Notes under the pieces: generated by a model
What the model was told of the DNA's origin: nothing
Database searches by the model: none
Seen by the model: the letters and a program-made list of their open reading frames with translations, nothing else
Program-made: the position numbers and the translations under genes
From: an uncultured Candidatus Saccharibacteria bacterium
GTDB lineage: Bacteria; Patescibacteriota; UBA1384; 2-12-FULL-50-11
Reading direction: 5' to 3'
Assembly: GCA_964599405.1 (NCBI GenBank)
Contig: CAZRED010000001.1
Location: forward strand, 75,528 to 139,527
DNA length: 64,000 nucleotides
Shown: one piece after another, positions 28,902-40,131 of the stretch
Layout: every line of letters begins with the position of its first letter
Numbering within the stretch: position 1 is the stretch's first letter

Positions 28902-28933
28902 TTTCCAGCGGGTGGATACAATAAGGTGGCGAA

Positions 28934-29341
28934 CTAGCTTTTAGAGTGATGTTCCAACCAGCTGGCAATTTCTGGTAGTGCTACTTGTTTGCTTGCTACT
29001 TTCATCACAAATTGTTCTGCTTCTTGATTGGAAGCTGTCAGCTTAAAACCGTTGATAAATAAAAACCGAGCAACGCTAGCCAAGCCGGTGCGTTTATTGC
29101 CGTCAACGAAGATTTGATACGCCGCAAAACTTTCCAGATAGGTCGCGGCTTTGAGAAAAACTGTCGGGAATTGTTCTTCACCAAATACCGCTGACTTTGG
29201 TCTTTCGGCAGTTGATAGAAATAAGTTCATATCACGGACACCATGAGATCCACCAACTTTTTCGATGATTTGGTGATGGATATACAATATCTCCTCGCCA
29301 GTCAGATAGCGCGCCTGGCGATTACTTTTTGGCAAGCTCAT
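28934..29341 (-). CDS. doc: Doc/Fic-family toxin
   Basis: FVDGNKRTG Fic/Doc motif; start moved to MSLPKSNRQARYL (ORF-track N-extension unlikely). Confidence 0.7.
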   Translation of the reverse strand: MSLPKSNRQARYLTGEEILYIHHQIIEKVGGSHGVRDMNLFLSTAERPKSAVFGEEQFPTVFLKAATYLESFAAYQIFVDGNKRTGLASVARFLFINGFKLTASNQEAEQFVMKVASKQVALPEIASWLEHHSKS

Positions 29342-29531
29342 CAAGTGCCGGTCGGTACTGGTCAATGAACTTATTTGTCCACTCGTGTAGCTCTGGGCTA
29401 ATGACAGTTTTGGCTGGTTTTTTGACGATAACCTCAACCTGGTCGCCCACGGTGACGTTCAGTTTTTTCAGCTCGCTTTTAGGAATAATTACTCCTGTTG
29501 AACTGCCGATCTTGATCAGTTTTTGAGTCAT
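29322..29531 (-). CDS. AbrB/MazE-fold antitoxin (Phd-like partner of Doc)
   Basis: MTQKLIKIGSSTGVIIPKSELKKLNVTVGD; 20-nt overlap with doc. Confidence 0.65.
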   Translation of the reverse strand: MTQKLIKIGSSTGVIIPKSELKKLNVTVGDQVEVIVKKPAKTVISPELHEWTNKFIDQYRPALDELAKK

Positions 29532-32525: not shown

Positions 32526-33305
32526 TTATGGTCGGAGAGTCCCGGCAAAGACCTGCCAGGCCAGTAAGCTCTTGGCGACAAGTGAAAGAATAATATACGC
32601 CCGTTCGCCGTAGAGATAATCCGCCCATTTACCGATCTTTTTGTACTGGAGGGTCATATTGATAGCAAAACAGTTGAAGAAAACGAAGATCGAAACGTAA
32701 ATCCAGTAAACAAACGTTGGGATATCGCCGGAGCCGTAGCGACTAGCCGCCCAAAACCAAATTGCCACCACCAACCACGGGATTACCCCGGCAAACGTCC
32801 CCAACTTAAAGGCCAACCAATTGGGTTTTTGGCCGCTCTCTAATGTGCCTTGGTTGTATATTTCCATTGCCAGGCCAGTGAGATTCATGATTGCCACTAA
32901 GGCAAAAATCATCAGCAAACTCGTCAGGTCATAGATCCCCACCAACATAGCAATGGCCACCATCATGACTGAAGCCGAGACGCTGTACTCCCACCACCGG
33001 GCCTTATTGACGCCCCTAAGCAGGTTGGCGTTGTAACTGCGATTGTAAACAGTGGCAATAATCAGGTGGGCCAGGGCGGAGATTGCCAGAAATCCCGCTA
33101 CCAGCCAGACCAGAGGCATATTAAACAGTGTCTCACTAGCTGGGATCAGCGATTGGCTAGCGATATCAAAGCGCAAGAAACCGACATTAACCGGCAAGGA
33201 AAAATCAGCGCTCAAATATACAATCGCCGCCGCCTGCAGTGCATGCAGCAGTGCCATAACCAAATTGAACTTACGTAGCTTTGCTAATCTAACGTCTTGC
33301 TCCAT
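32526..33305 (-). CDS. heliorhodopsin (7-TM retinal protein)
   Basis: Full-length collinearity with heliorhodopsin: FNLVMALLHALQ, RWWEYSVSASVMMV (E counterion), GVIPW, KWADYLYGERAYIILSLVAKSLLAWQ (Schiff-base Lys). Confidence 0.8.
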   Translation of the reverse strand: MEQDVRLAKLRKFNLVMALLHALQAAAIVYLSADFSLPVNVGFLRFDIASQSLIPASETLFNMPLVWLVAGFLAISALAHLIIATVYNRSYNANLLRGVNKARWWEYSVSASVMMVAIAMLVGIYDLTSLLMIFALVAIMNLTGLAMEIYNQGTLESGQKPNWLAFKLGTFAGVIPWLVVAIWFWAASRYGSGDIPTFVYWIYVSIFVFFNCFAINMTLQYKKIGKWADYLYGERAYIILSLVAKSLLAWQVFAGTLRP

Positions 33306-33484
33306 CGCCCCTCCTCCATTTATTTAACGATACCGCAATCCGCCAACGCAACAAGCAATATCAAACCAAACGCTAGGCAGGGAGTGGAATTTCTCTTTAG
33401 TTAGTTGGTTAGTTCGGGTTTTTCTTCTATGTGTTTGTCAGTAGTCATTATGGTGTTCTAGCAGTATTAGCGAAGCGTCAGAGT

Positions 33485-34000
33485 TAGAAAGTTAGTTATA
33501 TATTTATAAAGAACTCCCCTTTTTCCATTTCCATACCTTAAAGATAGTCATATTTTGGTGCAACTGCTGCACCAGTTCAAAGCCGGGGTTACAAAGCTTA
33601 GTTATATATTTATAGAGACTCCACTTTGGCGATTGTACTTACCTGTTAGAGCGATCTTTTTTGTCTCAGCTGCTGAGACGTTTTGTTAGATGAAACTAAT
33701 GAGTACTAAGTGGTGTAGATATGTATAGAAAGTGTAGTGATTTTTATTGATGAAGCTGTGAATGTCTTGGAAGTGGTATCAGGCCGGATGTTTCTTAGTA
33801 TATATATTAATAAAGACTCTACTTTTTCTTTCAGTTAACCAGGAAATTGAACGAATTTAGGAGCAACAGCTGCTCTTTTTGGGTAGCGAAGCCGAACATT
33901 AGCAGGGGGTCAGTAATATATATAAAGAGTAGTGAATTTTGTTTACTAAACCTGCAAAGATCGGCTTTTCGGTATCAGGCCTGATACCGGTGTCTCCAGG
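33485..34000 (+). repeat. tandem array of 5 degenerate ~105-bp units, each with AT-rich TATAAAG box and downstream hairpin
   Basis: TATA(A/G)AG boxes at 33505, 33611, 33723, 33809, 33921. Hairpins 50-52 nt downstream: GGTGCAactgcTGCACC (33557), GTCTCAGCtgcTGAGAC+GTTTTG (33663), GAGCAacagcTGCTC+TTTTTG (33859), GGTATCAGGccTGATACC (33972). Confidence 0.6.
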
Positions 34001-34153
34001 TAATTAATTGGCGTGCAGTGACGGTATACTTACGAAATAAATCGCTACTCCAACCGCCGCCAGAATTATCGCTACCCACCAAACTGGATTCATGGTTTTA
34101 GTTTAGCAAAAACGGTAGTACCCAACGAATAATCGCTTGTATAGTGGAAGAGT

Positions 34154-35884
34154 CTACGTAGTATCAGTAAAACATACGTTGTAGATCTCGTCGCCCAAAT
34201 CTTTCCAATGACTAGATTTATAATTGAAGGTTTCCGTGGAGAAATCTATTTTTCCAGAAAGTTTACTAAAGCCCTTATCATAGTAAGCGAAGCCATTCAC
34301 CTTATTATTCTCGATCAATATACGCATACAATGAATCAAGCCAGTAATCGTAGTCACGGTCAGCGCTCGGCTAACCTTCTGCTTAGTGGTCCACATATCG
34401 TTCGGTATTTGGTTCTTGAATGCTTTAAGAAACTCATTTATTTCTTTAGTGCAAAATTCTACGTATTCATTTAATAGGGCAGTATCTTTACCGTCTCTAA
34501 GCTCACTCTTTTTCCCTTCACTCCAAACATTAAAAAGCGTGTCCTTCCCTGAAAGCTTAACTACGTGCCTTACTCCGTAGGAAACTATAGATGTTGTTTT
34601 TAGCTTACCCTTGTCGAAAAAGTGTCTTTCGAGAACTTTATCCATTGGGTCAAGCTCAGCAAGTTTATTCATTACCTTCTTGGCTATAGATACCTCGTCG
34701 AACGGATTTACTATTGTATTAATTACTTGACGGAGAGACCCACTGGTTCTTGTCTGTCTATCATTAATTTCTAAAAATAGCTTCGCTTCAAACCTTCCTC
34801 GGTCTTCGAGAGATAGGTCGCTAGGGAAGACAATACCCGTAATCAAAAGGTGCTGCTTATCTCTTAAACTACTAATGTGCGTGTCATGTGCATCATCACC
34901 TTCATGGTATGAAAATACCCTATGTTGTCCGTCGATAATCCCAATGTTCCCGGCAACCTTTGGGATCCTAATTTTTATAGGATCCTTCATTACCCCTGTA
35001 CTTATTGGGAGATTTATCCGGTCGTTACTTTCATACTCAAGAAGTTGTAAGTCATTAGGTAAAGAGACGATGATATTATTTACGAATACCCGACCCTCAC
35101 TAGCAAGGTACTTACGCATATTACGTATTTTGTTACCGAGGATAATTCTTTGATAAACAAAGTCACTATCTTGCCAACCATCCCTTCTCAGTACATAAGC
35201 TTGCTTTAATAAGGTGTTTGGGTCAATTAGAAAAGATACCAGGTTATGCCCACTTGGAAAGCCACTCGGAGTTTCTGGAAGAATAAGGCCAACATAATCA
35301 TCCCCCGGAGAGCCGCTATTCTGTGGCCCTATCTCCTCAAATCCAACCCCGATAAATTTAAATAGTTCGAATCTTGCAGATCTTTTAATCGTTTTTGAGA
35401 GGCTTAAGAAATAACTACGTGACTTGTAATCCATAAAATGAAGGTGCTGATAACGATCTCTAAGTGACTGAGTTACCTCTTCGTGCGAAACATATAAGAA
35501 TGCTAACTTAATATCATGACTAGCGTAGCCCGCGGTAGAATTTTTCCCGTAATTTGGGATTTTGCTCTTAAAAAGCTCAATTAAGTCATTTTGGTTGTTC
35601 TTGCAGTTAGTAAAGAACTCAGCTTTCTTCCGAAGGTGATCAGTATCACTTGTTGTAGTATCCTCTACGATAAGAATAAGGTTCTCGAAAACAAAAACAT
35701 TATCTAGATCGCTTTCTTGTCCACATAGATTAATTTTAAAGTCTTCGGCGACTGCCATAAATCCCATATTGCTAAAGGTAGTGCGTACGTCCCTTCTAAT
35801 TTTTCTCTTAAGGCCTAATCTTTCACTGTCTGATAGGTTAGGCATATTATTTATTGTCTTGATGCATAATTCTCTTATACCCAA
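34154..35884 (-). CDS. DGQHR-domain (DndB-like, ParB/Srx fold) protein
   Basis: GIIDGQHRV at aa 318-322, codons verified at 34919-34933. 576 aa with about 220 aa N-terminal domain of unknown function. Overlaps upstream MTase stop. Confidence 0.7.
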   Translation of the reverse strand: MGIRELCIKTINNMPNLSDSERLGLKRKIRRDVRTTFSNMGFMAVAEDFKINLCGQESDLDNVFVFENLILIVEDTTTSDTDHLRKKAEFFTNCKNNQNDLIELFKSKIPNYGKNSTAGYASHDIKLAFLYVSHEEVTQSLRDRYQHLHFMDYKSRSYFLSLSKTIKRSARFELFKFIGVGFEEIGPQNSGSPGDDYVGLILPETPSGFPSGHNLVSFLIDPNTLLKQAYVLRRDGWQDSDFVYQRIILGNKIRNMRKYLASEGRVFVNNIIVSLPNDLQLLEYESNDRINLPISTGVMKDPIKIRIPKVAGNIGIIDGQHRVFSYHEGDDAHDTHISSLRDKQHLLITGIVFPSDLSLEDRGRFEAKLFLEINDRQTRTSGSLRQVINTIVNPFDEVSIAKKVMNKLAELDPMDKVLERHFFDKGKLKTTSIVSYGVRHVVKLSGKDTLFNVWSEGKKSELRDGKDTALLNEYVEFCTKEINEFLKAFKNQIPNDMWTTKQKVSRALTVTTITGLIHCMRILIENNKVNGFAYYDKGFSKLSGKIDFSTETFNYKSSHWKDLGDEIYNVCFTDTT

Positions 35885-36770
35885 ACTTCAAATATTTTTT
35901 ATTAAGCTCTGCCCCCACTGAGTTTCTGCCCTGCTTTTCGGCAGCGACAGAGGTAGTAAACGTACCAGCGAAGGGGTCGAAAATCGTATCTCCCTTATTG
36001 CTACTCACTTTTATAAAGAGCTCTAGCAAATTCAGTGGCAGTTGGCATGGATGGTCTTTCTCCTTCAGCTCGCCCGGCTCCATGGACCGAAACTTATTTC
36101 CAAGGTTCCGAACTCGATCCTTGGAATTATTCTTCATCATGTGCATATCTATAGTATCGATTAGGCCATCTTGTAGCTCTATCAGATCAAGGAACCTTAA
36201 TAAGTCGTATGAGGTTCTGCCCTTAGATCCTTCTGCGATACGTTTCCGTACTACTGGCGCGGTTGGATTTTTATAGTGCTGTACTAAATTTTCTCTATTG
36301 AAGACATAGCCCTTCGTTGACTTAGTAAAAAATAAAACAGACCTCTGGCTTCGCGTATAATTATTTTTTGAATGCCCAATATTTGTGGGGTAGTGCCATG
36401 TAATCCATCTCCGGTAATTAAGACCTAGCTCATCTTGAAGATAGGGCAGAAGGCGGGCATTAATCTCGGGGTAACTAATTAGGTAGAAGCTCCCCTTGTC
36501 ACTTAAGATTCTTGGGATATCGCGCAATTTGGCTTCTAGCCAGGCATAATACTCCTTCCAGGACTTGGAGTCGTCAAAGCTACCATAGTCGAGCCCCATA
36601 TTGTAGGGAGGATCCGTAATAATGAGGTCTATACTTTTACTAGGGATCTGACTGATTATCTGTTCGCAATCACCTAGCACGAGGATGTGTCCTGTTTTTT
36701 CTTTCTCAATAAAGTCAAAGGCAAAGCCTTGCTTGCTTATAGGTTTGAGGATAGATTTTATATTCCTCAT
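35847..36770 (-). CDS. DNA methyltransferase (beta class, DPPY; N4-C or N6-A)
   Basis: LIITDPPYNMG motif IV, N6_N4_Mtase-like; 307 aa. Confidence 0.75.
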   Translation of the reverse strand: MRNIKSILKPISKQGFAFDFIEKEKTGHILVLGDCEQIISQIPSKSIDLIITDPPYNMGLDYGSFDDSKSWKEYYAWLEAKLRDIPRILSDKGSFYLISYPEINARLLPYLQDELGLNYRRWITWHYPTNIGHSKNNYTRSQRSVLFFTKSTKGYVFNRENLVQHYKNPTAPVVRKRIAEGSKGRTSYDLLRFLDLIELQDGLIDTIDMHMMKNNSKDRVRNLGNKFRSMEPGELKEKDHPCQLPLNLLELFIKVSSNKGDTIFDPFAGTFTTSVAAEKQGRNSVGAELNKKYLKFGYKRIMHQDNK

Positions 36771-36807: not shown

Positions 36808-37899
36808 CTATTTTTTGCCTTTGCGGCGGTTATCGTCGCGGCAGAGCATTTGGCAGTTATCGGCATTAGTTTTTCCGCCCTCAACCCACGGCGTAATGTG
36901 GTCGGCTTCCATTTCTTCAATCTCAAAATGTTTACCACAATCCGGACAAACACCTTTCTGTCGTTCAAAGGCCTCGCGTTTCATGTTATCGGTAAACGCC
37001 CGAATATTTAGACACTTTTCTTCACGGGTTAGAACATATTCATAGATACCGGACTTTTTTGTTACGTCTTCGTCCATCATCAACTGTGTAACTTCCGCTT
37101 CCAGCTTGTCGGTATCGAACTTATCGTCCTTAAATTGATTGTAAAATCTGCCCCAATCCAAACCTTTCATTTCTTTTCGATACTTCGGAAAAGTCAGACG
37201 TGTCCAGCTTATAACATTTTGGAAGTACGACCAAAGCTCATTGGCATTTTGGTCGTGTTGGTGCTTGGCCATGTAGTCTTCTATTTTTCCGTCGTTAATC
37301 CAAGCTAGCGTAGTTTCCAGTATCTCTTGCCGAATTGGCGAACCGTTCACTAGCTGCCCGCCATCGCTAGCTAGCAAATAAGCTGCACAGTTAGATTTGC
37401 TGAATTTCAGTTTGGCGTCACTTAGCCATGGTCCAGTATAAATCGCATTGCGGAGCTCTTGGTCGGTTAATTTTTCGCCAGCGATGTTAATGATTCTGAA
37501 CCAATCCAGTCTTTCTTTGTCGGTGCCTTCGCACCAGTAAATCATCAGCTCATAGTCCTGAATTTGCTTCTGTTCCTCATCAGTTAGGTTGTGGAAAAAG
37601 CGATCTTTGAGCGAAAAATCACCGTTGACATATTGCCCAATACTTATTGTTCGTTGCTGGCCGTCCATAACTTCAAAGTTCCCTTGGTCGGTTTTGACCC
37701 AATACATTACGTTCAGCGGAAAACCATTTTTAATCGTTTCTATTACTGCGTCGCGCTGCTTGTCTTTATAAACAAATTCACGTTGGTATCTTGGGCGGAT
37801 GTCGAGTTTACCACCGTAAGCTATGACGCCTTCCTCGGCGCTGTCTTTGTAGCCGACGATCACTTCTCGAACAGGAATTCGTTGTAGTTCAATTTTCAT
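36808..37899 (-). CDS. DUF262 (DGQQR NTPase-like, ParB fold) + HNH endonuclease; SspE/GmrSD-like
   Basis: VMDGQQRTISIGQY (codons verified at 37651-37665). C-terminal CPDCGKHF...ADHITPW...NADNCQMLCRDDNRRKG HNH. Confidence 0.75.
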   Translation of the reverse strand: MKIELQRIPVREVIVGYKDSAEEGVIAYGGKLDIRPRYQREFVYKDKQRDAVIETIKNGFPLNVMYWVKTDQGNFEVMDGQQRTISIGQYVNGDFSLKDRFFHNLTDEEQKQIQDYELMIYWCEGTDKERLDWFRIINIAGEKLTDQELRNAIYTGPWLSDAKLKFSKSNCAAYLLASDGGQLVNGSPIRQEILETTLAWINDGKIEDYMAKHQHDQNANELWSYFQNVISWTRLTFPKYRKEMKGLDWGRFYNQFKDDKFDTDKLEAEVTQLMMDEDVTKKSGIYEYVLTREEKCLNIRAFTDNMKREAFERQKGVCPDCGKHFEIEEMEADHITPWVEGGKTNADNCQMLCRDDNRRKGKK

Positions 37900-38983
37900 T
37901 TTGTGTCCTTTTCCTTTGCTTAATTATTATTCTTGCGTATGTCGCTTTGCCGTTGATGATAGCGCCTACATATTTTTTATGCTGTTCATCAAGATATGTT
38001 GGATTCCCTTGTATTAACGAGTCTGACTTCTCTCTCTTGTCTGCAAATAAGCCAATAATTTCAAACTGTTGGGGGTTATATTTATCTAGAAAAGTAATCG
38101 GAACACCCATTGCACCATTCCAATCCATAGGTACGTCTGCAAACTTAGAAACCTCTATCGCATCATAATTGTCGTATTTTGGATATTCTTCAGGCGTGTA
38201 TTTTTTATACAAGTCTACCTCCTCGTGACGCTTGGTGGTGTCAAGGTTTGTGAACCATACTATGCTTCCCATACTGATGTATTTGATGCCATTCTCGATT
38301 TTCTTTCTTGATTCGGTCGGGATATCGTAATCATCAGGAACTTGGAACCACTTTGTGCCACCATTATCATATCCAAGCCACATTTTATTTTCTTTAATAA
38401 GTTTGAAGGTCTCTTTATACGTGATGGCATTCTGGTTACCAAGAATCAAAAACTTTTTATCATATTCCATAAGCTGCGCCACATACTCGCGAAACAATGA
38501 AAACGGCGGGTTTGTCACTACGATATCGGCTTCTTTGAGCAGCTCTATACACTCATGACTTCTAAAATCACCGTTGCCTTGTAAGGACGATGAAGTATTT
38601 TTAGTGTGCTTTATAAGATTCTGAACATCACCCAAATCTACAGCGCCATCACCATCACTGTCAGGCACTTCGTTTACTTCGACTTTAAATGGTTGCTTAC
38701 CATCTGGCTTTAGACCCTCCATCTCGAAGATTGGCAACTGCGTTCCAGCAATAGGCGATTTAGTGTAGCTGGTGGCGATAAGTTTTTTTAAGCCCAAATG
38801 GTTAAAGCTGCTCGCAAAATACTTGAAAAAATTACTCTCATACGGATCGTCACAATTACAAAAAACAACCTTGCTGCGGAATTGATCTTTGTATCGCGTT
38901 AACTCTTTTTCGATATCAGCACGTTGTGTGTAAAACTCGTCCTTTTTCTGCAACTTTGCTGTATGTAAATTATTCTGCGCCAT
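37889..38983 (-). CDS. N6-adenine DNA methyltransferase (NPPF motif)
   Basis: IVVTNPPFSLF motif IV; 364 aa; TAATG coupling with upstream small ORF. Confidence 0.7.
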   Translation of the reverse strand: MAQNNLHTAKLQKKDEFYTQRADIEKELTRYKDQFRSKVVFCNCDDPYESNFFKYFASSFNHLGLKKLIATSYTKSPIAGTQLPIFEMEGLKPDGKQPFKVEVNEVPDSDGDGAVDLGDVQNLIKHTKNTSSSLQGNGDFRSHECIELLKEADIVVTNPPFSLFREYVAQLMEYDKKFLILGNQNAITYKETFKLIKENKMWLGYDNGGTKWFQVPDDYDIPTESRKKIENGIKYISMGSIVWFTNLDTTKRHEEVDLYKKYTPEEYPKYDNYDAIEVSKFADVPMDWNGAMGVPITFLDKYNPQQFEIIGLFADKREKSDSLIQGNPTYLDEQHKKYVGAIINGKATYARIIIKQRKRTQNEN

Positions 38984-39252
38984 TAAATTAGCCGGGTGTT
39001 TTTGAGCTTTGCTAGGTAGCTAAAGTCATCTTCTGATATTTTGGGCACAACATTGAACGTTATTTTCGTTTTTGATGTGTCGCTTATTGCACCGCCTAAT
39101 ACTACAAAGTATTTTATCTCTCCCTTAGCTTCTTTTGTTGATTCAACTTCTACCTCAACTTTTATCGCACCCCAAACTACACCGTTCTTAAGATTATTGA
39201 TAAGTTCGTTGGTGAGATTCTCAATGTAAGATGAAAGCTCAACTTTCTCCAT
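38983..39252 (-). CDS. small operon-leading protein of unknown function
   Basis: 89 aa; its stop overlaps the MTase start (TAATG). Confidence 0.45.
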   Translation of the reverse strand: MEKVELSSYIENLTNELINNLKNGVVWGAIKVEVEVESTKEAKGEIKYFVVLGGAISDTSKTKITFNVVPKISEDDFSYLAKLKNTRLI

Positions 39253-39289
39253 TTGCCAAATTCTACTCTTTTTAACCTGAAAAAGCCAG

Positions 39290-39330
39290 GTTTGGGGAAC
39301 AACCCACCCCGGGTGGGTTGTTCAGGGGCT
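39290..39330 (-). terminator. tandem hairpins between HEPN-like gene and defense operon (attenuator/terminator)
   Basis: CAACCCACCccgGGTGGGTTG and AACCTGgctttttCAGGTT. Confidence 0.4.
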
Positions 39331-39408
39331 ATGGTCGCGCGGGACAGATTTGGTCACGGTAGATCGGGTAAATCAACTAATAACATTCTTGCATATGGAA
39401 GGGATTAA

Positions 39409-40131
39409 TTATCTTTTTTTGAATTTTTTACAATTGCAACCATCCGTTAAGCATTCTACAAAAAGAATATTTTTCCCCTTCATTACGAAATGAGCAGCTT
39501 TTGCATGACCGCAGTCACAGATAGCAAACAGACCCTTTTTCCTGCCGAATTCTACTACTTCCTCATTAGATACAACACCATAAGTTTTCGCGAAACTTCT
39601 TTCACTTCTAGAATTAATCTTCTTTGATGCGAGATATTCAACTTTTACCTCTATGCCGTTATCTATCCTGCTCTTTGTCATTCCGTAACCAGTAGCAACT
39701 TGTTTGTCTTCCAATGATTTATTTATCTTATTTAACTCTTGAAAAATCTTTTCGTACCGTGAACATGCCAAACCAAGATGGGAATACTCTATTTCGCTAG
39801 TAAAAAACCTGTGGATTGCCTTATTCCTGACATCATAGAGTTTATTCAGCTCGTCATATATTGATCGGGTGATAATTTTTTTCTCATATGCTAATTGATA
39901 AATTATCCTCTCTGACAAGTAATCGTTTCCTTCTTGAAAAATATATTTCTCAGTAATTCTGTTGGTTTTTTCTTCTAGCTGTTGCTCTAAAACTAGACAA
40001 ATCCGACACTGTGCTTCGACTAGAGAAGAATACAATACCAACCCCTCTATTAACGAGCCATTATCATAAGCCTTATTGAGCAGTAACCTTGTTGCAGCAA
40101 ATGCGGAAATAAAGTTTTCTAACTTTTTCAT
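39409..40131 (-). CDS. HEPN-like (Rx4H) protein with C-terminal Cys-rich zinc ribbon
   Basis: DVRNKAIHR Rx4H motif; C-terminal CDCGH...CLTDGCNC; 240 aa. Starts 23 nt after the dnaK stop. Confidence 0.45.
   Translation of the reverse strand: MKKLENFISAFAATRLLLNKAYDNGSLIEGLVLYSSLVEAQCRICLVLEQQLEEKTNRITEKYIFQEGNDYLSERIIYQLAYEKKIITRSIYDELNKLYDVRNKAIHRFFTSEIEYSHLGLACSRYEKIFQELNKINKSLEDKQVATGYGMTKSRIDNGIEVKVEYLASKKINSRSERSFAKTYGVVSNEEVVEFGRKKGLFAICDCGHAKAAHFVMKGKNILFVECLTDGCNCKKFKKR

What the first reader, a model, noticed from the sequence alone, without database searches (positions are those of the whole stretch)
36808..37899. SspE/GmrSD-like DUF262-HNH nuclease without PT-modification genes
The DGQQR motif (aa 79-83, codons 37651-37665) defines the DUF262 NTPase-like ParB fold used by SspE, GmrSD and BrxU to sense modified DNA. 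Here it is fused to a canonical HNH domain (CxxC...H...N...C) and encoded between two MTases. If it is modification-dependent, its target must be something other than the cell's own marks, or it is licensed by the DGQHR partner.
Basis: partly seen in the sequence, partly recalled or inferred. Interest (0 to 1): 0.6.

Follow-up and report, generated by a model that had tools for sequence, protein, structure and literature searches.

The report
DUF262-HNH nuclease of a restriction-modification pair
The gene is real and has the stated domains, but it is most likely the cutting enzyme of an ordinary-looking, very widespread two-gene restriction-modification module whose partner is the EcoRI-type methylase gene just upstream, not a GmrSD/SspE-style enzyme that attacks modified DNA.

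Summary
ORF 36808-37899(-) encodes 363 aa with a DUF262/GmrSD_N domain (DGQQR at aa 79-83), a helical middle region and a zinc-knuckle HNH domain. It lies between two methylase genes.

The interpretation does not hold. The whole protein matches PADLOC model PDLC03418, labelled 'Type II restriction enzyme', end to end (E=5e-144). The upstream gene overlaps it by 11 nt and is 46% identical to genuine M.EcoRI. This M-then-R pair recurs in 79 of 82 loci examined and in one phage, down to about 38% R identity. One apparent M-R fusion protein was also found. None of the 82 loci carries the DGQHR gene. That gene forms its own module with the other methylase.

The C-terminal nuclease is a classical HNH (PF01844), not the DUF1524 of GmrSD, BrxU and SspE. 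BrxU is only a marginal sequence match (E=0.45). No phosphorothioate-modification genes were found.

The best reading is the restriction subunit of an m6A restriction-modification system, probably gated by NTP through its intact ParB/Srx motifs. Recognition site, NTP use and cleavage are untested. Within the close clade R evolves more slowly than M. I found no paper or solved structure for this family.

The parts
36808..37899 (-). R gene: 363-aa DUF262(ParB/Srx)-helical-HNH endonuclease, the predicted restriction subunit
   Evidence: ORF. Pfam PF03235 plus PF01844. Full-length PADLOC REase_II PDLC03418, E=4.8e-144. AF2 model with mean pLDDT 81.
37438..37800 (-). DUF262/GmrSD_N (ParB/Srx-fold) domain, aa 34-154, the predicted NTP-binding module
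   Evidence: Pfam E=7.9e-18. Weak Foldseek matches to BrxU, Noc, ParB and sulfiredoxin. PADLOC NsnA domain hit at aa 30-158, E=4.7e-27.
37780..37797 (-). RPxYQR motif (aa 35-40) of DUF262
   Evidence: R35, P36, Q39 and R40 are invariant in 28 sequences.
37651..37665 (-). DGQQR motif (aa 79-83)
   Evidence: All five residues are invariant in 28 sequences.
36991..37437 (-). Central all-helical region (aa 155-303) with no Pfam family. Inferred to be the DNA-binding and site-reading module.
   Evidence: Helices H157-297 in the AF2 model. Highly conserved: column conservation 0.77-0.94. Its function is inference only.
36811..36948 (-). HNH (beta-beta-alpha-metal) nuclease domain, aa 318-363: C318xxC321, D333-H334, N348, C353xxD356-N357
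   Evidence: Pfam PF01844 E=5.7e-14. PDB sequence hit to the Gme HNH nickase 4h9d, E=3.7e-6. Residues located. C318, C321, D333, H334, N348, C353 and N357 are invariant.
37889..38983 (-). M gene: 364-aa M.EcoRI-family N6-adenine DNA methyltransferase (NPPF at aa 158-161, codons 38501-38512), the predicted cognate methylase
   Evidence: PF13651 E=5e-146, covering positions 1-344 of 345. PADLOC MTase_II PDLC03297, E=4.9e-129. 46% identity over the full length to the M.EcoRI encoded beside R.EcoRI on an E. coli ColE1-type plasmid. Motif located.
37889..37899 (-). 11-nt overlap between the M stop (TGA) and the R start (ATG), with an AAGGA Shine-Dalgarno-like sequence upstream, consistent with translational coupling in the order M then R
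   Evidence: Sequence read. The same tight junction (+1, -1, -4 or -11 nt) occurs in 45 of 69 full-length pairs.

Best explanation
The gene encodes the endonuclease (R) of a two-gene restriction-modification module. Its methylase (M) is the overlapping upstream M.EcoRI-family N6-adenine methyltransferase.

Proposed mechanism: M marks adenines in a short host site. R binds unmarked sites on incoming DNA and cuts with its HNH active site. Site reading is probably done by the conserved central helical region. The N-terminal DUF262 (ParB/Srx) domain keeps both nucleotide-binding motifs intact and most likely acts as an NTP-dependent switch that gates or assembles the nuclease.

What is shown here: the domain architecture, intact catalytic and NTP motifs, a full-length match to a catalogued Type II REase profile, and strict, co-diverging M-R linkage across phyla, plasmids and a phage.

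What is inferred: cleavage of unmodified DNA, protection by m6A, NTP dependence, the recognition sequence, and whether the enzyme nicks or makes double-strand cuts.
For: Family label. PADLOC PDLC03418, 'Type II restriction enzyme', matches aa 1-363 against profile positions 1-372 of 372 (E=4.8e-144). All 28 diverse relatives tested match it as well.

Methylase partner. The upstream gene is PF13651 (E=5e-146) and is 46% identical to genuine M.EcoRI (context).

Linkage.
- 79 of 82 R loci have this methylase immediately upstream on the same strand. Junctions are mostly +1, -4 or -11 nt.
- Two of the three exceptions lack upstream sequence because of a contig edge (L019, with only 463 nt upstream; L049, which also has a RhuM-like insert). 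L065 is the only apparent orphan.
- The pair also sits on plasmids of Aeromonas, Mammaliicoccus, Gordonia, Variovorax, Rhodococcus and Lactobacillus. One is a 7.5-kb plasmid whose only annotated genes are rep, a MerR-family regulator, M and R.
- It occurs in Flavobacterium phage laban6-1, where R is 38% identical.
- P0265 appears to be an M-R fusion.

Co-divergence. M and R distances correlate: Mantel r=0.45, and 0 of 2000 permutations reached it.

Selection. Synonymous sites are saturated (pS about 0.80), while dN is only 0.12 for R and 0.32 for M. The conservation therefore reflects purifying selection, not recent transfer.

Active sites. All HNH and DUF262 motif residues are invariant.
Against: No biochemical datum is available for any member. 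I could not learn which enzyme(s) seeded the PADLOC/REBASE model, or whether any has been assayed. The 'Type II' label may itself rest on gene context.

The characterised defence nucleases I know of with a DUF262 domain (GmrSD, BrxU, SspE) are modification-sensing. This is from my own knowledge and from the reviews read.

A strict Type II enzyme needs no NTP, so the intact ParB/Srx motifs fit that label poorly.

R is more conserved than M within the close clade: 80% versus 62% mean identity, with R above M in 98% of pairs. This is the reverse of what is usual for R-M pairs. The set was chosen by R similarity, and at greater distances R and M diverge about equally.

No depletion of a candidate site was detectable.
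Confidence: 0.78

Rival explanations
1. Type IV, modification-dependent enzyme. The DUF262 domain senses a foreign base modification and the HNH domain cuts modified DNA, as in GmrSD and BrxU. The neighbouring methylases would be unrelated or orphan.
For: DUF262 with an intact DGQQR motif. Weak fold similarity to BrxU 7p9k. DUF262 is described as the modified-DNA sensor in GmrSD and SspE in the papers read.
Against: The cognate methylase is linked in 79 of 82 loci, with overlapping reading frames, one apparent fusion protein and co-divergence. The nuclease domain is PF01844, not DUF1524, and there is no PF07510 hit at E<=0.01. BrxU is only a marginal sequence match (E=0.45, aa 35-70). The full-length match is to a Type II REase profile, while the mREase_IV hit is marginal (E=0.0039, HNH region only).
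Confidence: 0.07
2. Self-mark-licensed nuclease, as in SspE. R reads the m6A placed by its own methylase on host DNA, and that stimulates its NTPase and switches on nicking of unmarked invader DNA. M would then be an activator rather than only a protector.
For: This would explain both the strict M-R linkage and the retention of a DUF262 NTPase-like domain. SspE provides a precedent: it relies on PT modification in host DNA (abstract of PMC9646914, listed).
Against: Nothing in the sequence data distinguishes this from plain protection. SspE has a DUF1524 nuclease and a different partner set. Small plasmids that carry only rep, a MerR-family regulator, M and R look like classical R-M and addiction cassettes.
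Confidence: 0.06
3. The DUF262-HNH protein works together with the downstream DGQHR protein as one four-gene system, the 'licensed by the DGQHR partner' idea.
For: The four genes lie head to tail on one strand in a low-GC island, GC 0.38-0.43 against about 0.50 in the flanks.
Against: None of the 82 related loci carries the DGQHR gene or the N6_N4 methylase. DGQHR homologues sit directly downstream of their own N6_N4 methylase, without a DUF262-HNH gene, in Rhizobiales plasmids and three unrelated metagenomic lineages.
Confidence: 0.03

Closest known systems
REBASE-type Type II restriction enzyme family represented by PADLOC-DB model PDLC03418 (REase_II), with MTase_II model PDLC03297
   Same: Full-length profile match for R (E=4.8e-144) and for M (E=4.9e-129). 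Same length (363 aa against a 372-position profile). Same M-R operon context.
   Different: Nothing was detected that sets this copy apart from the family. What is unknown is whether any member has been assayed, and what site it recognises.
EcoRI restriction-modification system (R.EcoRI plus M.EcoRI, GAATTC)
   Same: The methylase is a true M.EcoRI homologue: 46% identity over the full length, an NPPF motif and a full-length PF13651 match.
   Different: The nuclease is unrelated. It is DUF262-HNH rather than R.EcoRI, which from my own knowledge has the PD-(D/E)XK fold. The gene order is M then R with overlap, whereas EcoRI is R then M. The methylase has two insertions relative to M.EcoRI. The specificity is unknown.
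GmrSD / BrxU Type IV restriction enzymes (DUF262 + DUF1524)
   Same: N-terminal DUF262 ParB/Srx domain with DGQQR. A His-Me-finger nuclease at the C terminus. Weak fold match to BrxU.
   Different: The C-terminal domain is a zinc-knuckle HNH (PF01844), not DUF1524. The protein is much shorter (363 aa, against 587 aa for the BrxU chain). It is always paired with a methylase. The sequence match to BrxU is marginal (E=0.45).
SspE of the SspABCD-SspE phosphorothioate system
   Same: A DUF262 NTPase-like domain fused to a His-Me nuclease, encoded next to a DNA-modification gene.
   Different: No ssp or dnd modification genes were found in the window. The partner is an m6A methylase. The nuclease domain belongs to a different family.
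HNH-type Type II restriction enzymes (KpnI, MnlI, Hpy99I, PacI and others; Orlowski and Bujnicki 2008, PMC2441816)
   Same: A beta-beta-alpha-metal catalytic core with a D-H...N...N signature and a cysteine zinc site, used for restriction in an R-M pair.
   Different: As far as I know (own knowledge), none of those listed carries an N-terminal ParB/Srx (DUF262) domain. The list read gives fold assignments only, not domain architectures.
NsnA of the Menshen system (ParB-DUF262 sensor)
   Same: It is the best non-REase PADLOC hit to the DUF262 region (aa 30-158, E=4.7e-27).
   Different: No NsnB ABC ATPase or NsnC effector genes are present. Here the DUF262 domain is fused directly to a nuclease.

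Membership tests
GmrSD/BrxU/SspE (DUF262-DUF1524 modification-sensing nucleases) | N-terminal DUF262 (ParB/Srx) domain with the DGQQR motif | tested here: met
   PF03235 E=7.9e-18. DGQQR at aa 79-83.
GmrSD/BrxU/SspE (DUF262-DUF1524 modification-sensing nucleases) | C-terminal DUF1524 (PF07510) His-Me nuclease domain | tested here: not met
   The Pfam scan at E<=0.01 returns only PF03235, PF01844 and PF14279.
GmrSD/BrxU/SspE (DUF262-DUF1524 modification-sensing nucleases) | Detectable overall sequence relationship to a solved member (BrxU) | tested here: not met
   A family profile against PDB sequences gives BrxU 7p9k at E=0.45, over aa 35-70 only. Foldseek gives E=6.6e-3 and TM 0.22.
GmrSD/BrxU/SspE (DUF262-DUF1524 modification-sensing nucleases) | Acts alone on modified DNA (GmrSD, BrxU) or is linked to PT-modification genes (SspE), with no cognate base methylase | tested here: not met
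   An M.EcoRI-family gene is adjacent in 79 of 82 loci. No Dnd or Ssp genes were found in the window.
GmrSD/BrxU/SspE (DUF262-DUF1524 modification-sensing nucleases) | Cleavage depends on a DNA modification | not testable with these tools
   This needs an enzyme assay.
Type II restriction-modification system (REBASE sense) | Endonuclease homologous to a catalogued Type II REase | tested here: met
   PADLOC PDLC03418 REase_II, full length, E=4.8e-144. 28 of 28 relatives match. The experimental status of the seed sequences is unknown.
Type II restriction-modification system (REBASE sense) | A separate cognate methyltransferase gene linked in the same locus and co-inherited | tested here: met
   Mantel r=0.45, with 0 of 2000 permutations reaching it. 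One apparent fusion protein.
Type II restriction-modification system (REBASE sense) | Cuts at or near a defined unmodified sequence and is blocked by the cognate methylation | not testable with these tools
   A k-mer depletion search for a site was inconclusive.
Type II restriction-modification system (REBASE sense) | Needs only a divalent metal, with no NTP | not testable with these tools
   The intact DUF262 NTP-binding motifs make NTP involvement plausible. If true, the enzyme would not be an orthodox Type II.
HNH / His-Me finger endonucleases (PF01844) | Beta-beta-alpha-metal core with a catalytic His, metal-binding Asn residues and a zinc site | tested here: met
   PF01844 E=5.7e-14. Hit to 4h9d at E=3.7e-6. 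D333, H334, N348, N357, C318, C321 and C353 are invariant.
M.EcoRI family N6-adenine methyltransferases (for the partner gene) | Full-length PF13651 match, an NPPF catalytic motif and similarity to M.EcoRI | tested here: met
   E=5e-146. NPPF at aa 158. 46% identity to M.EcoRI.
M.EcoRI family N6-adenine methyltransferases (for the partner gene) | GAATTC specificity | not testable with these tools
   GAATTC shows O/E of 0.80 in the pooled host loci, which is not distinctive.

The most novel reading that the evidence does not exclude
The family may be a genuine host-protective R-M system whose endonuclease is switched by NTP binding or hydrolysis in a ParB/Srx (DUF262) domain. That would make it an NTP-gated class distinct from orthodox Type II enzymes.

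The adjacent module pairs an N6_N4 methylase with a protein that has a PD-(D/E)XK-like N-terminal domain and a DGQHR domain. Taken together, the two modules point to a broader, unrecognised group of 'ParB-superfamily' restriction enzymes, each paired with a base methylase.
Probability: 0.35. Interest if true: 0.55.

Novelty: new member of a known kind. Interest (0 to 1): 0.33.

Why it matters
For this window the result is mostly corrective. The locus is a small low-GC defence island that holds two independent methylase-nuclease modules. It is not a modification-dependent enzyme stranded among methylases.

The family itself is worth a biochemist's attention for four reasons:
- It is very abundant. 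There are more than 8000 close homologues and 529 clusters at 50% identity with E<1e-30, spread across Patescibacteria, gut Firmicutes, plasmids and a phage.
- Within the close clade its nuclease is under stronger purifying selection than its methylase.
- It joins a ParB/Srx nucleotide-binding fold to an HNH nuclease inside what looks like a classical R-M pair.
- I found no paper or solved structure for it.

If NTP gating is real, it would link ParB-type nucleotide switches to methylation-based self/non-self discrimination. It might also yield a new kind of restriction reagent.

Tried and rejected
(1) Naming the characterised enzyme behind PADLOC PDLC03418. Seven full-text searches and reading of the GmrSD phylogenomics paper, the Type II classification paper, the His-Me classification paper, and the Menshen, PT-reappraisal and polyvalent-protein papers turned up no description of a DUF262-HNH nuclease paired with an EcoRI-type methylase. 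Source names are only 'DUF262 domain-containing protein' or 'HNH endonuclease'. The paper cap stopped a check of BrxU residue roles.

(2) Inferring the recognition site from k-mer depletion, using 874 kb of host DNA around 80 genome loci plus the window. The lowest palindromes (ACGT 0.72, GGCC 0.73, GGTACC 0.65) are not distinctive. GAATTC is 0.80 and AATT 1.02. The result is inconclusive.

(4) Promoter and terminator scans of 33.3-40.4 kb found fewer promoter-like sites than shuffled controls, so they gave nothing usable.

(5) A search for att-like repeats or tRNA genes bounding the island found nothing convincing.

(6) The idea that the variable regions of M indicate shifting specificity was not pursued. 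The two main variable segments are insertions relative to M.EcoRI, so they need not be target-recognition elements.

Full report
OBSERVATION. The ORF at 36808..37899 on the minus strand is real and encodes 363 aa. Pfam finds GmrSD_N/DUF262 (PF03235) at aa 34-154 (E=7.9e-18) and HNH (PF01844) at aa 318-363 (E=5.7e-14). A second DUF262 motif, RPxYQR, is at aa 35-40. The HNH signature is C318xxC321, D333-H334, N348, C353xxD356-N357. The gene is flanked by two methylase genes on the same strand: an EcoRI_methylase (PF13651, E=5e-146) at 37889..38983 and an N6_N4_Mtase (PF01555) at 35847..36770. The segment from about 34 to 40 kb has GC 0.38-0.43 against about 0.50 around it. It lies between a heliorhodopsin gene and dnaK. 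Of the 17 ORFs of 330 aa or more that lie outside the island, I scanned ten. Nine are housekeeping or sugar-metabolism genes and one gave no Pfam match. No Dnd or Ssp genes were seen among those or the island genes.

WHAT THE PROTEIN MATCHES. Against PADLOC-DB the whole protein (aa 1-363) aligns to the whole of model PDLC03418 (positions 1-372 of 372), labelled 'Type II restriction enzyme', with E=4.8e-144. The upstream methylase matches MTase_II model PDLC03297 with E=4.9e-129. All 28 diverse relatives I aligned match PDLC03418. Hits to DUF262-containing defence proteins (NsnA, PD-T4-2_A) cover only the DUF262 region, and the Type IV 'mREase_IV' hit is marginal (E=0.0039, HNH region only). 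Against PDB sequences only the HNH part matches anything (Gme HNH nickase 4h9d, McrA, Cas9 and IscB HNH domains). BrxU, the solved GmrSD-family enzyme, scores E=0.45 over aa 35-70 with a family profile. An AlphaFold2 model (mean pLDDT 81, pTM 0.61) shows an N-terminal alpha/beta domain, a long all-helical middle region (aa 157-297) and a C-terminal beta-beta-alpha unit. Foldseek against the PDB gives no hit with E<=0.001. The weak hits are domain-level matches to HNH domains, BrxU, Noc, ParB and sulfiredoxin, and no solved Type II REase appears. So the ParB/Srx-plus-HNH architecture is supported, and the family has no solved structure.

GENE CONTEXT IS THE DECISIVE EVIDENCE. The family is very large. 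A word-indexed search saturated at 8000 hits, and all of the 120 listed are 78-100% identical and almost all 363-368 aa long. An exhaustive search of 50%-identity cluster representatives gave 529 with E<1e-30. I fetched 80 genomic loci, mostly Patescibacteria but also MAGs labelled Gammaproteobacteria, Flavobacteriaceae, Bdellovibrionales, Omnitrophota, Fidelibacterota and Thermomicrobiales, plus two plasmid loci. In 79 of the 82 loci an EcoRI-family methylase gene lies immediately upstream on the same strand. Among 69 pairs with both genes complete, the junction is +1, -1, -4 or -11 nt in 45 of them. In the window the overlap is 11 nt, with an AAGGA sequence ahead of the R start. Two of the three exceptions lack upstream sequence because of a contig edge: L019 has only 463 nt upstream, and L049 also has a RhuM-like insert. 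L065 is the only apparent orphan R.

The same pair is annotated on plasmids of Aeromonas, Mammaliicoccus, Sulfitobacter, Gordonia, Ruania, Variovorax, Rhodococcus, Ligilactobacillus and Lactiplantibacillus, down to about 38% R identity. One of these is a 7.5-kb Ligilactobacillus plasmid whose only annotated genes are rep, a MerR-family regulator, M and R. The pair also occurs in Flavobacterium phage laban6-1 with a 4-nt overlap. One cluster representative (P0265, 688 aa) appears to be an EcoRI_methylase-GmrSD_N-HNH fusion. M and R distances co-vary: Mantel r=0.45, and 0 of 2000 permutations reached that value. None of the 82 loci contains the DGQHR gene, the N6_N4 methylase, the 89-aa ORF or the 240-aa ORF that neighbour the pair in the window.

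THE METHYLASE. It is a close relative of M.EcoRI itself: 46% identity over the full length to the methylase encoded next to 'type-2 restriction enzyme EcoRI' on a 4-kb E. coli plasmid. It has NPPF at aa 158. Relative to M.EcoRI it carries two insertions (about aa 113-137 and 319-340). These coincide with the least conserved segments of the methylase alignment.

EVOLUTIONARY RATE. Among the 70 pairs, R averages 80% pairwise identity and M 62%, and R exceeds M in 98% of the 2415 comparisons. Synonymous sites are saturated in both genes (pS about 0.80), while dN is 0.12 for R and 0.32 for M. So the uniformity of R reflects strong purifying selection, not recent spread. There is a caveat. The loci were selected by R similarity, and for more distant plasmid pairs R and M identities to the window are about equal (for example 55 and 54, 53 and 52, 39 and 42). 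Even parity is unusual for restriction enzymes, which from general knowledge usually diverge faster than their methylases. Fifteen loci have unrelated cargo genes (RhuM-like, T5orf172-like and others) inserted between M and R.

THE DGQHR NEIGHBOUR. The 563-576-aa protein at 34154..35884 carries a DGQHR domain (TIGR03187, E=4.6e-21). Its homologues number 1248, and the closest are about 570 aa long. They sit directly downstream of an N6_N4 methylase in every place I looked: two Rhizobiales plasmids and three unrelated metagenomic lineages. A confident model (pLDDT 88, pTM 0.85) shows an N-terminal alpha-beta-beta-beta-alpha domain. Its best PDB matches are PD-(D/E)XK-type nuclease domains (Can2, XisH, Bax1, the R2 endonuclease, BspD6I). 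They have high Foldseek probability but weak E-values, 0.03 or higher. D48, N55, E61 and H70 are invariant and K73 is nearly so. It therefore looks like a second, independent methylase-nuclease module whose nuclease also carries a ParB-superfamily domain. It is not a partner of the DUF262-HNH gene.

MECHANISM. The best-supported reading (confidence about 0.78) is that M methylates adenine in a short site and R cuts unmethylated DNA through its HNH centre. The conserved helical middle region probably does the site reading. The DUF262 domain has every motif residue invariant, so it most likely binds an NTP and gates or assembles the nuclease. That last point is by analogy with ParB CTP switches and the NTP-responsive BrxU, GmrSD and SspE, and rests on my own knowledge and the reviews read. 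I put the NTP-gating part at roughly even odds. Only architecture, motif integrity and linkage are shown here. Activity, methylation sensitivity, NTP use and the recognition site are inferred.

The rival readings are each below 0.1. They are a Type IV modification-dependent enzyme, a nuclease licensed by its own methylase's mark in the manner of SspE, and a four-gene system with DGQHR. The main evidence against them is the methylase linkage, the absence of DUF1524, and the neighbourhood census.

COMPARISON AND NOVELTY. The locus works like a Type II R-M pair, and by profile it belongs to a family already catalogued as such. It resembles GmrSD, BrxU and SspE only in the DUF262 domain. It fails their defining features: the DUF1524 nuclease, and independence from a cognate base methylase. 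It shares its methylase lineage with EcoRI but not its nuclease or its gene order. I therefore file it as a new member of a known kind, with modest interest. The residual interest lies in the family being abundant, highly constrained and apparently unstudied, and in its combining a ParB/Srx nucleotide-binding fold with methylation-based restriction.

Noticed in passing
window 34154-36770 (-): A second, independent two-gene module: an N6_N4 methylase (DPPY at aa 53) followed by a protein of about 570 aa. That protein has an N-terminal domain resembling PD-(D/E)XK nucleases (Can2, XisH, Bax1, BspD6I; weak E-values, high Foldseek probability) and a C-terminal DGQHR (DndB-like ParB-superfamily) domain. 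The pairing with an upstream N6_N4 methylase is conserved in Rhizobiales plasmids and three metagenomic lineages.
   Followed up: partly
loci L003-L082 versus window 36808-38983: Within the close clade the nuclease evolves more slowly than its methylase: 80% versus 62% mean identity, and dN 0.12 versus 0.32 with saturated synonymous sites. This is the reverse of the usual R-M pattern. The effect is partly due to sampling, because more distant pairs show about equal divergence.
   Followed up: partly
L006, L015, L020, L021, L025, L030, L033, L036, L037, L047, L051, L061, L068, L070, L081 (between M and R): In 15 of 69 loci, unrelated cargo genes sit between the methylase and the nuclease genes. 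They include RhuM-like genes and genes that look T5orf172-like by eye (no family search was run). The M-R junction seems to be a recurrent insertion point.
   Followed up: no
P0265 (688 aa, cluster representative): A single polypeptide with EcoRI_methylase, GmrSD_N and HNH domains, that is, an apparent M-R fusion. It could instead be a sequencing or gene-calling read-through.
   Followed up: no
window 38983-40131 (-): An 89-aa ORF with a weak Trypco2 match (E=2.7e-4), whose stop overlaps the methylase start. Upstream of it is a 240-aa ORF with a C-terminal Cys/His cluster and no family match. Neither accompanies the R-M pair in any of the 82 other loci.
   Followed up: no
window 32526-33305 (-): A heliorhodopsin gene (PF18761, E=1.2e-93) lies next to the defence island.
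   Followed up: no
window about 28930-29530 (-); L083 13334-13931: An adjacent pair of genes, one MazE-like (weak match) and one with a Fic domain, which is possibly a toxin-antitoxin pair (precomputed Pfam).
   Followed up: no
window 33306-34153: An intergenic stretch of about 850 bp at the edge of the island. It holds a 21-nt direct repeat (33492 and 33598, 95% identical) and a 15-nt inverted repeat (33775-33789 and 33974-33988). No tRNA gene or att-like flanking repeat was found.
   Followed up: no
BFVD hits to model m1cc74334e284: Proteins of similar size with a GmrSD_N (DUF262) N-terminal domain occur in giant viruses (Catovirus, Hokovirus, Indivirus, Yasminevirus) and in phages. Foldseek E-values go down to 4e-9 with TM about 0.45.
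   Followed up: no
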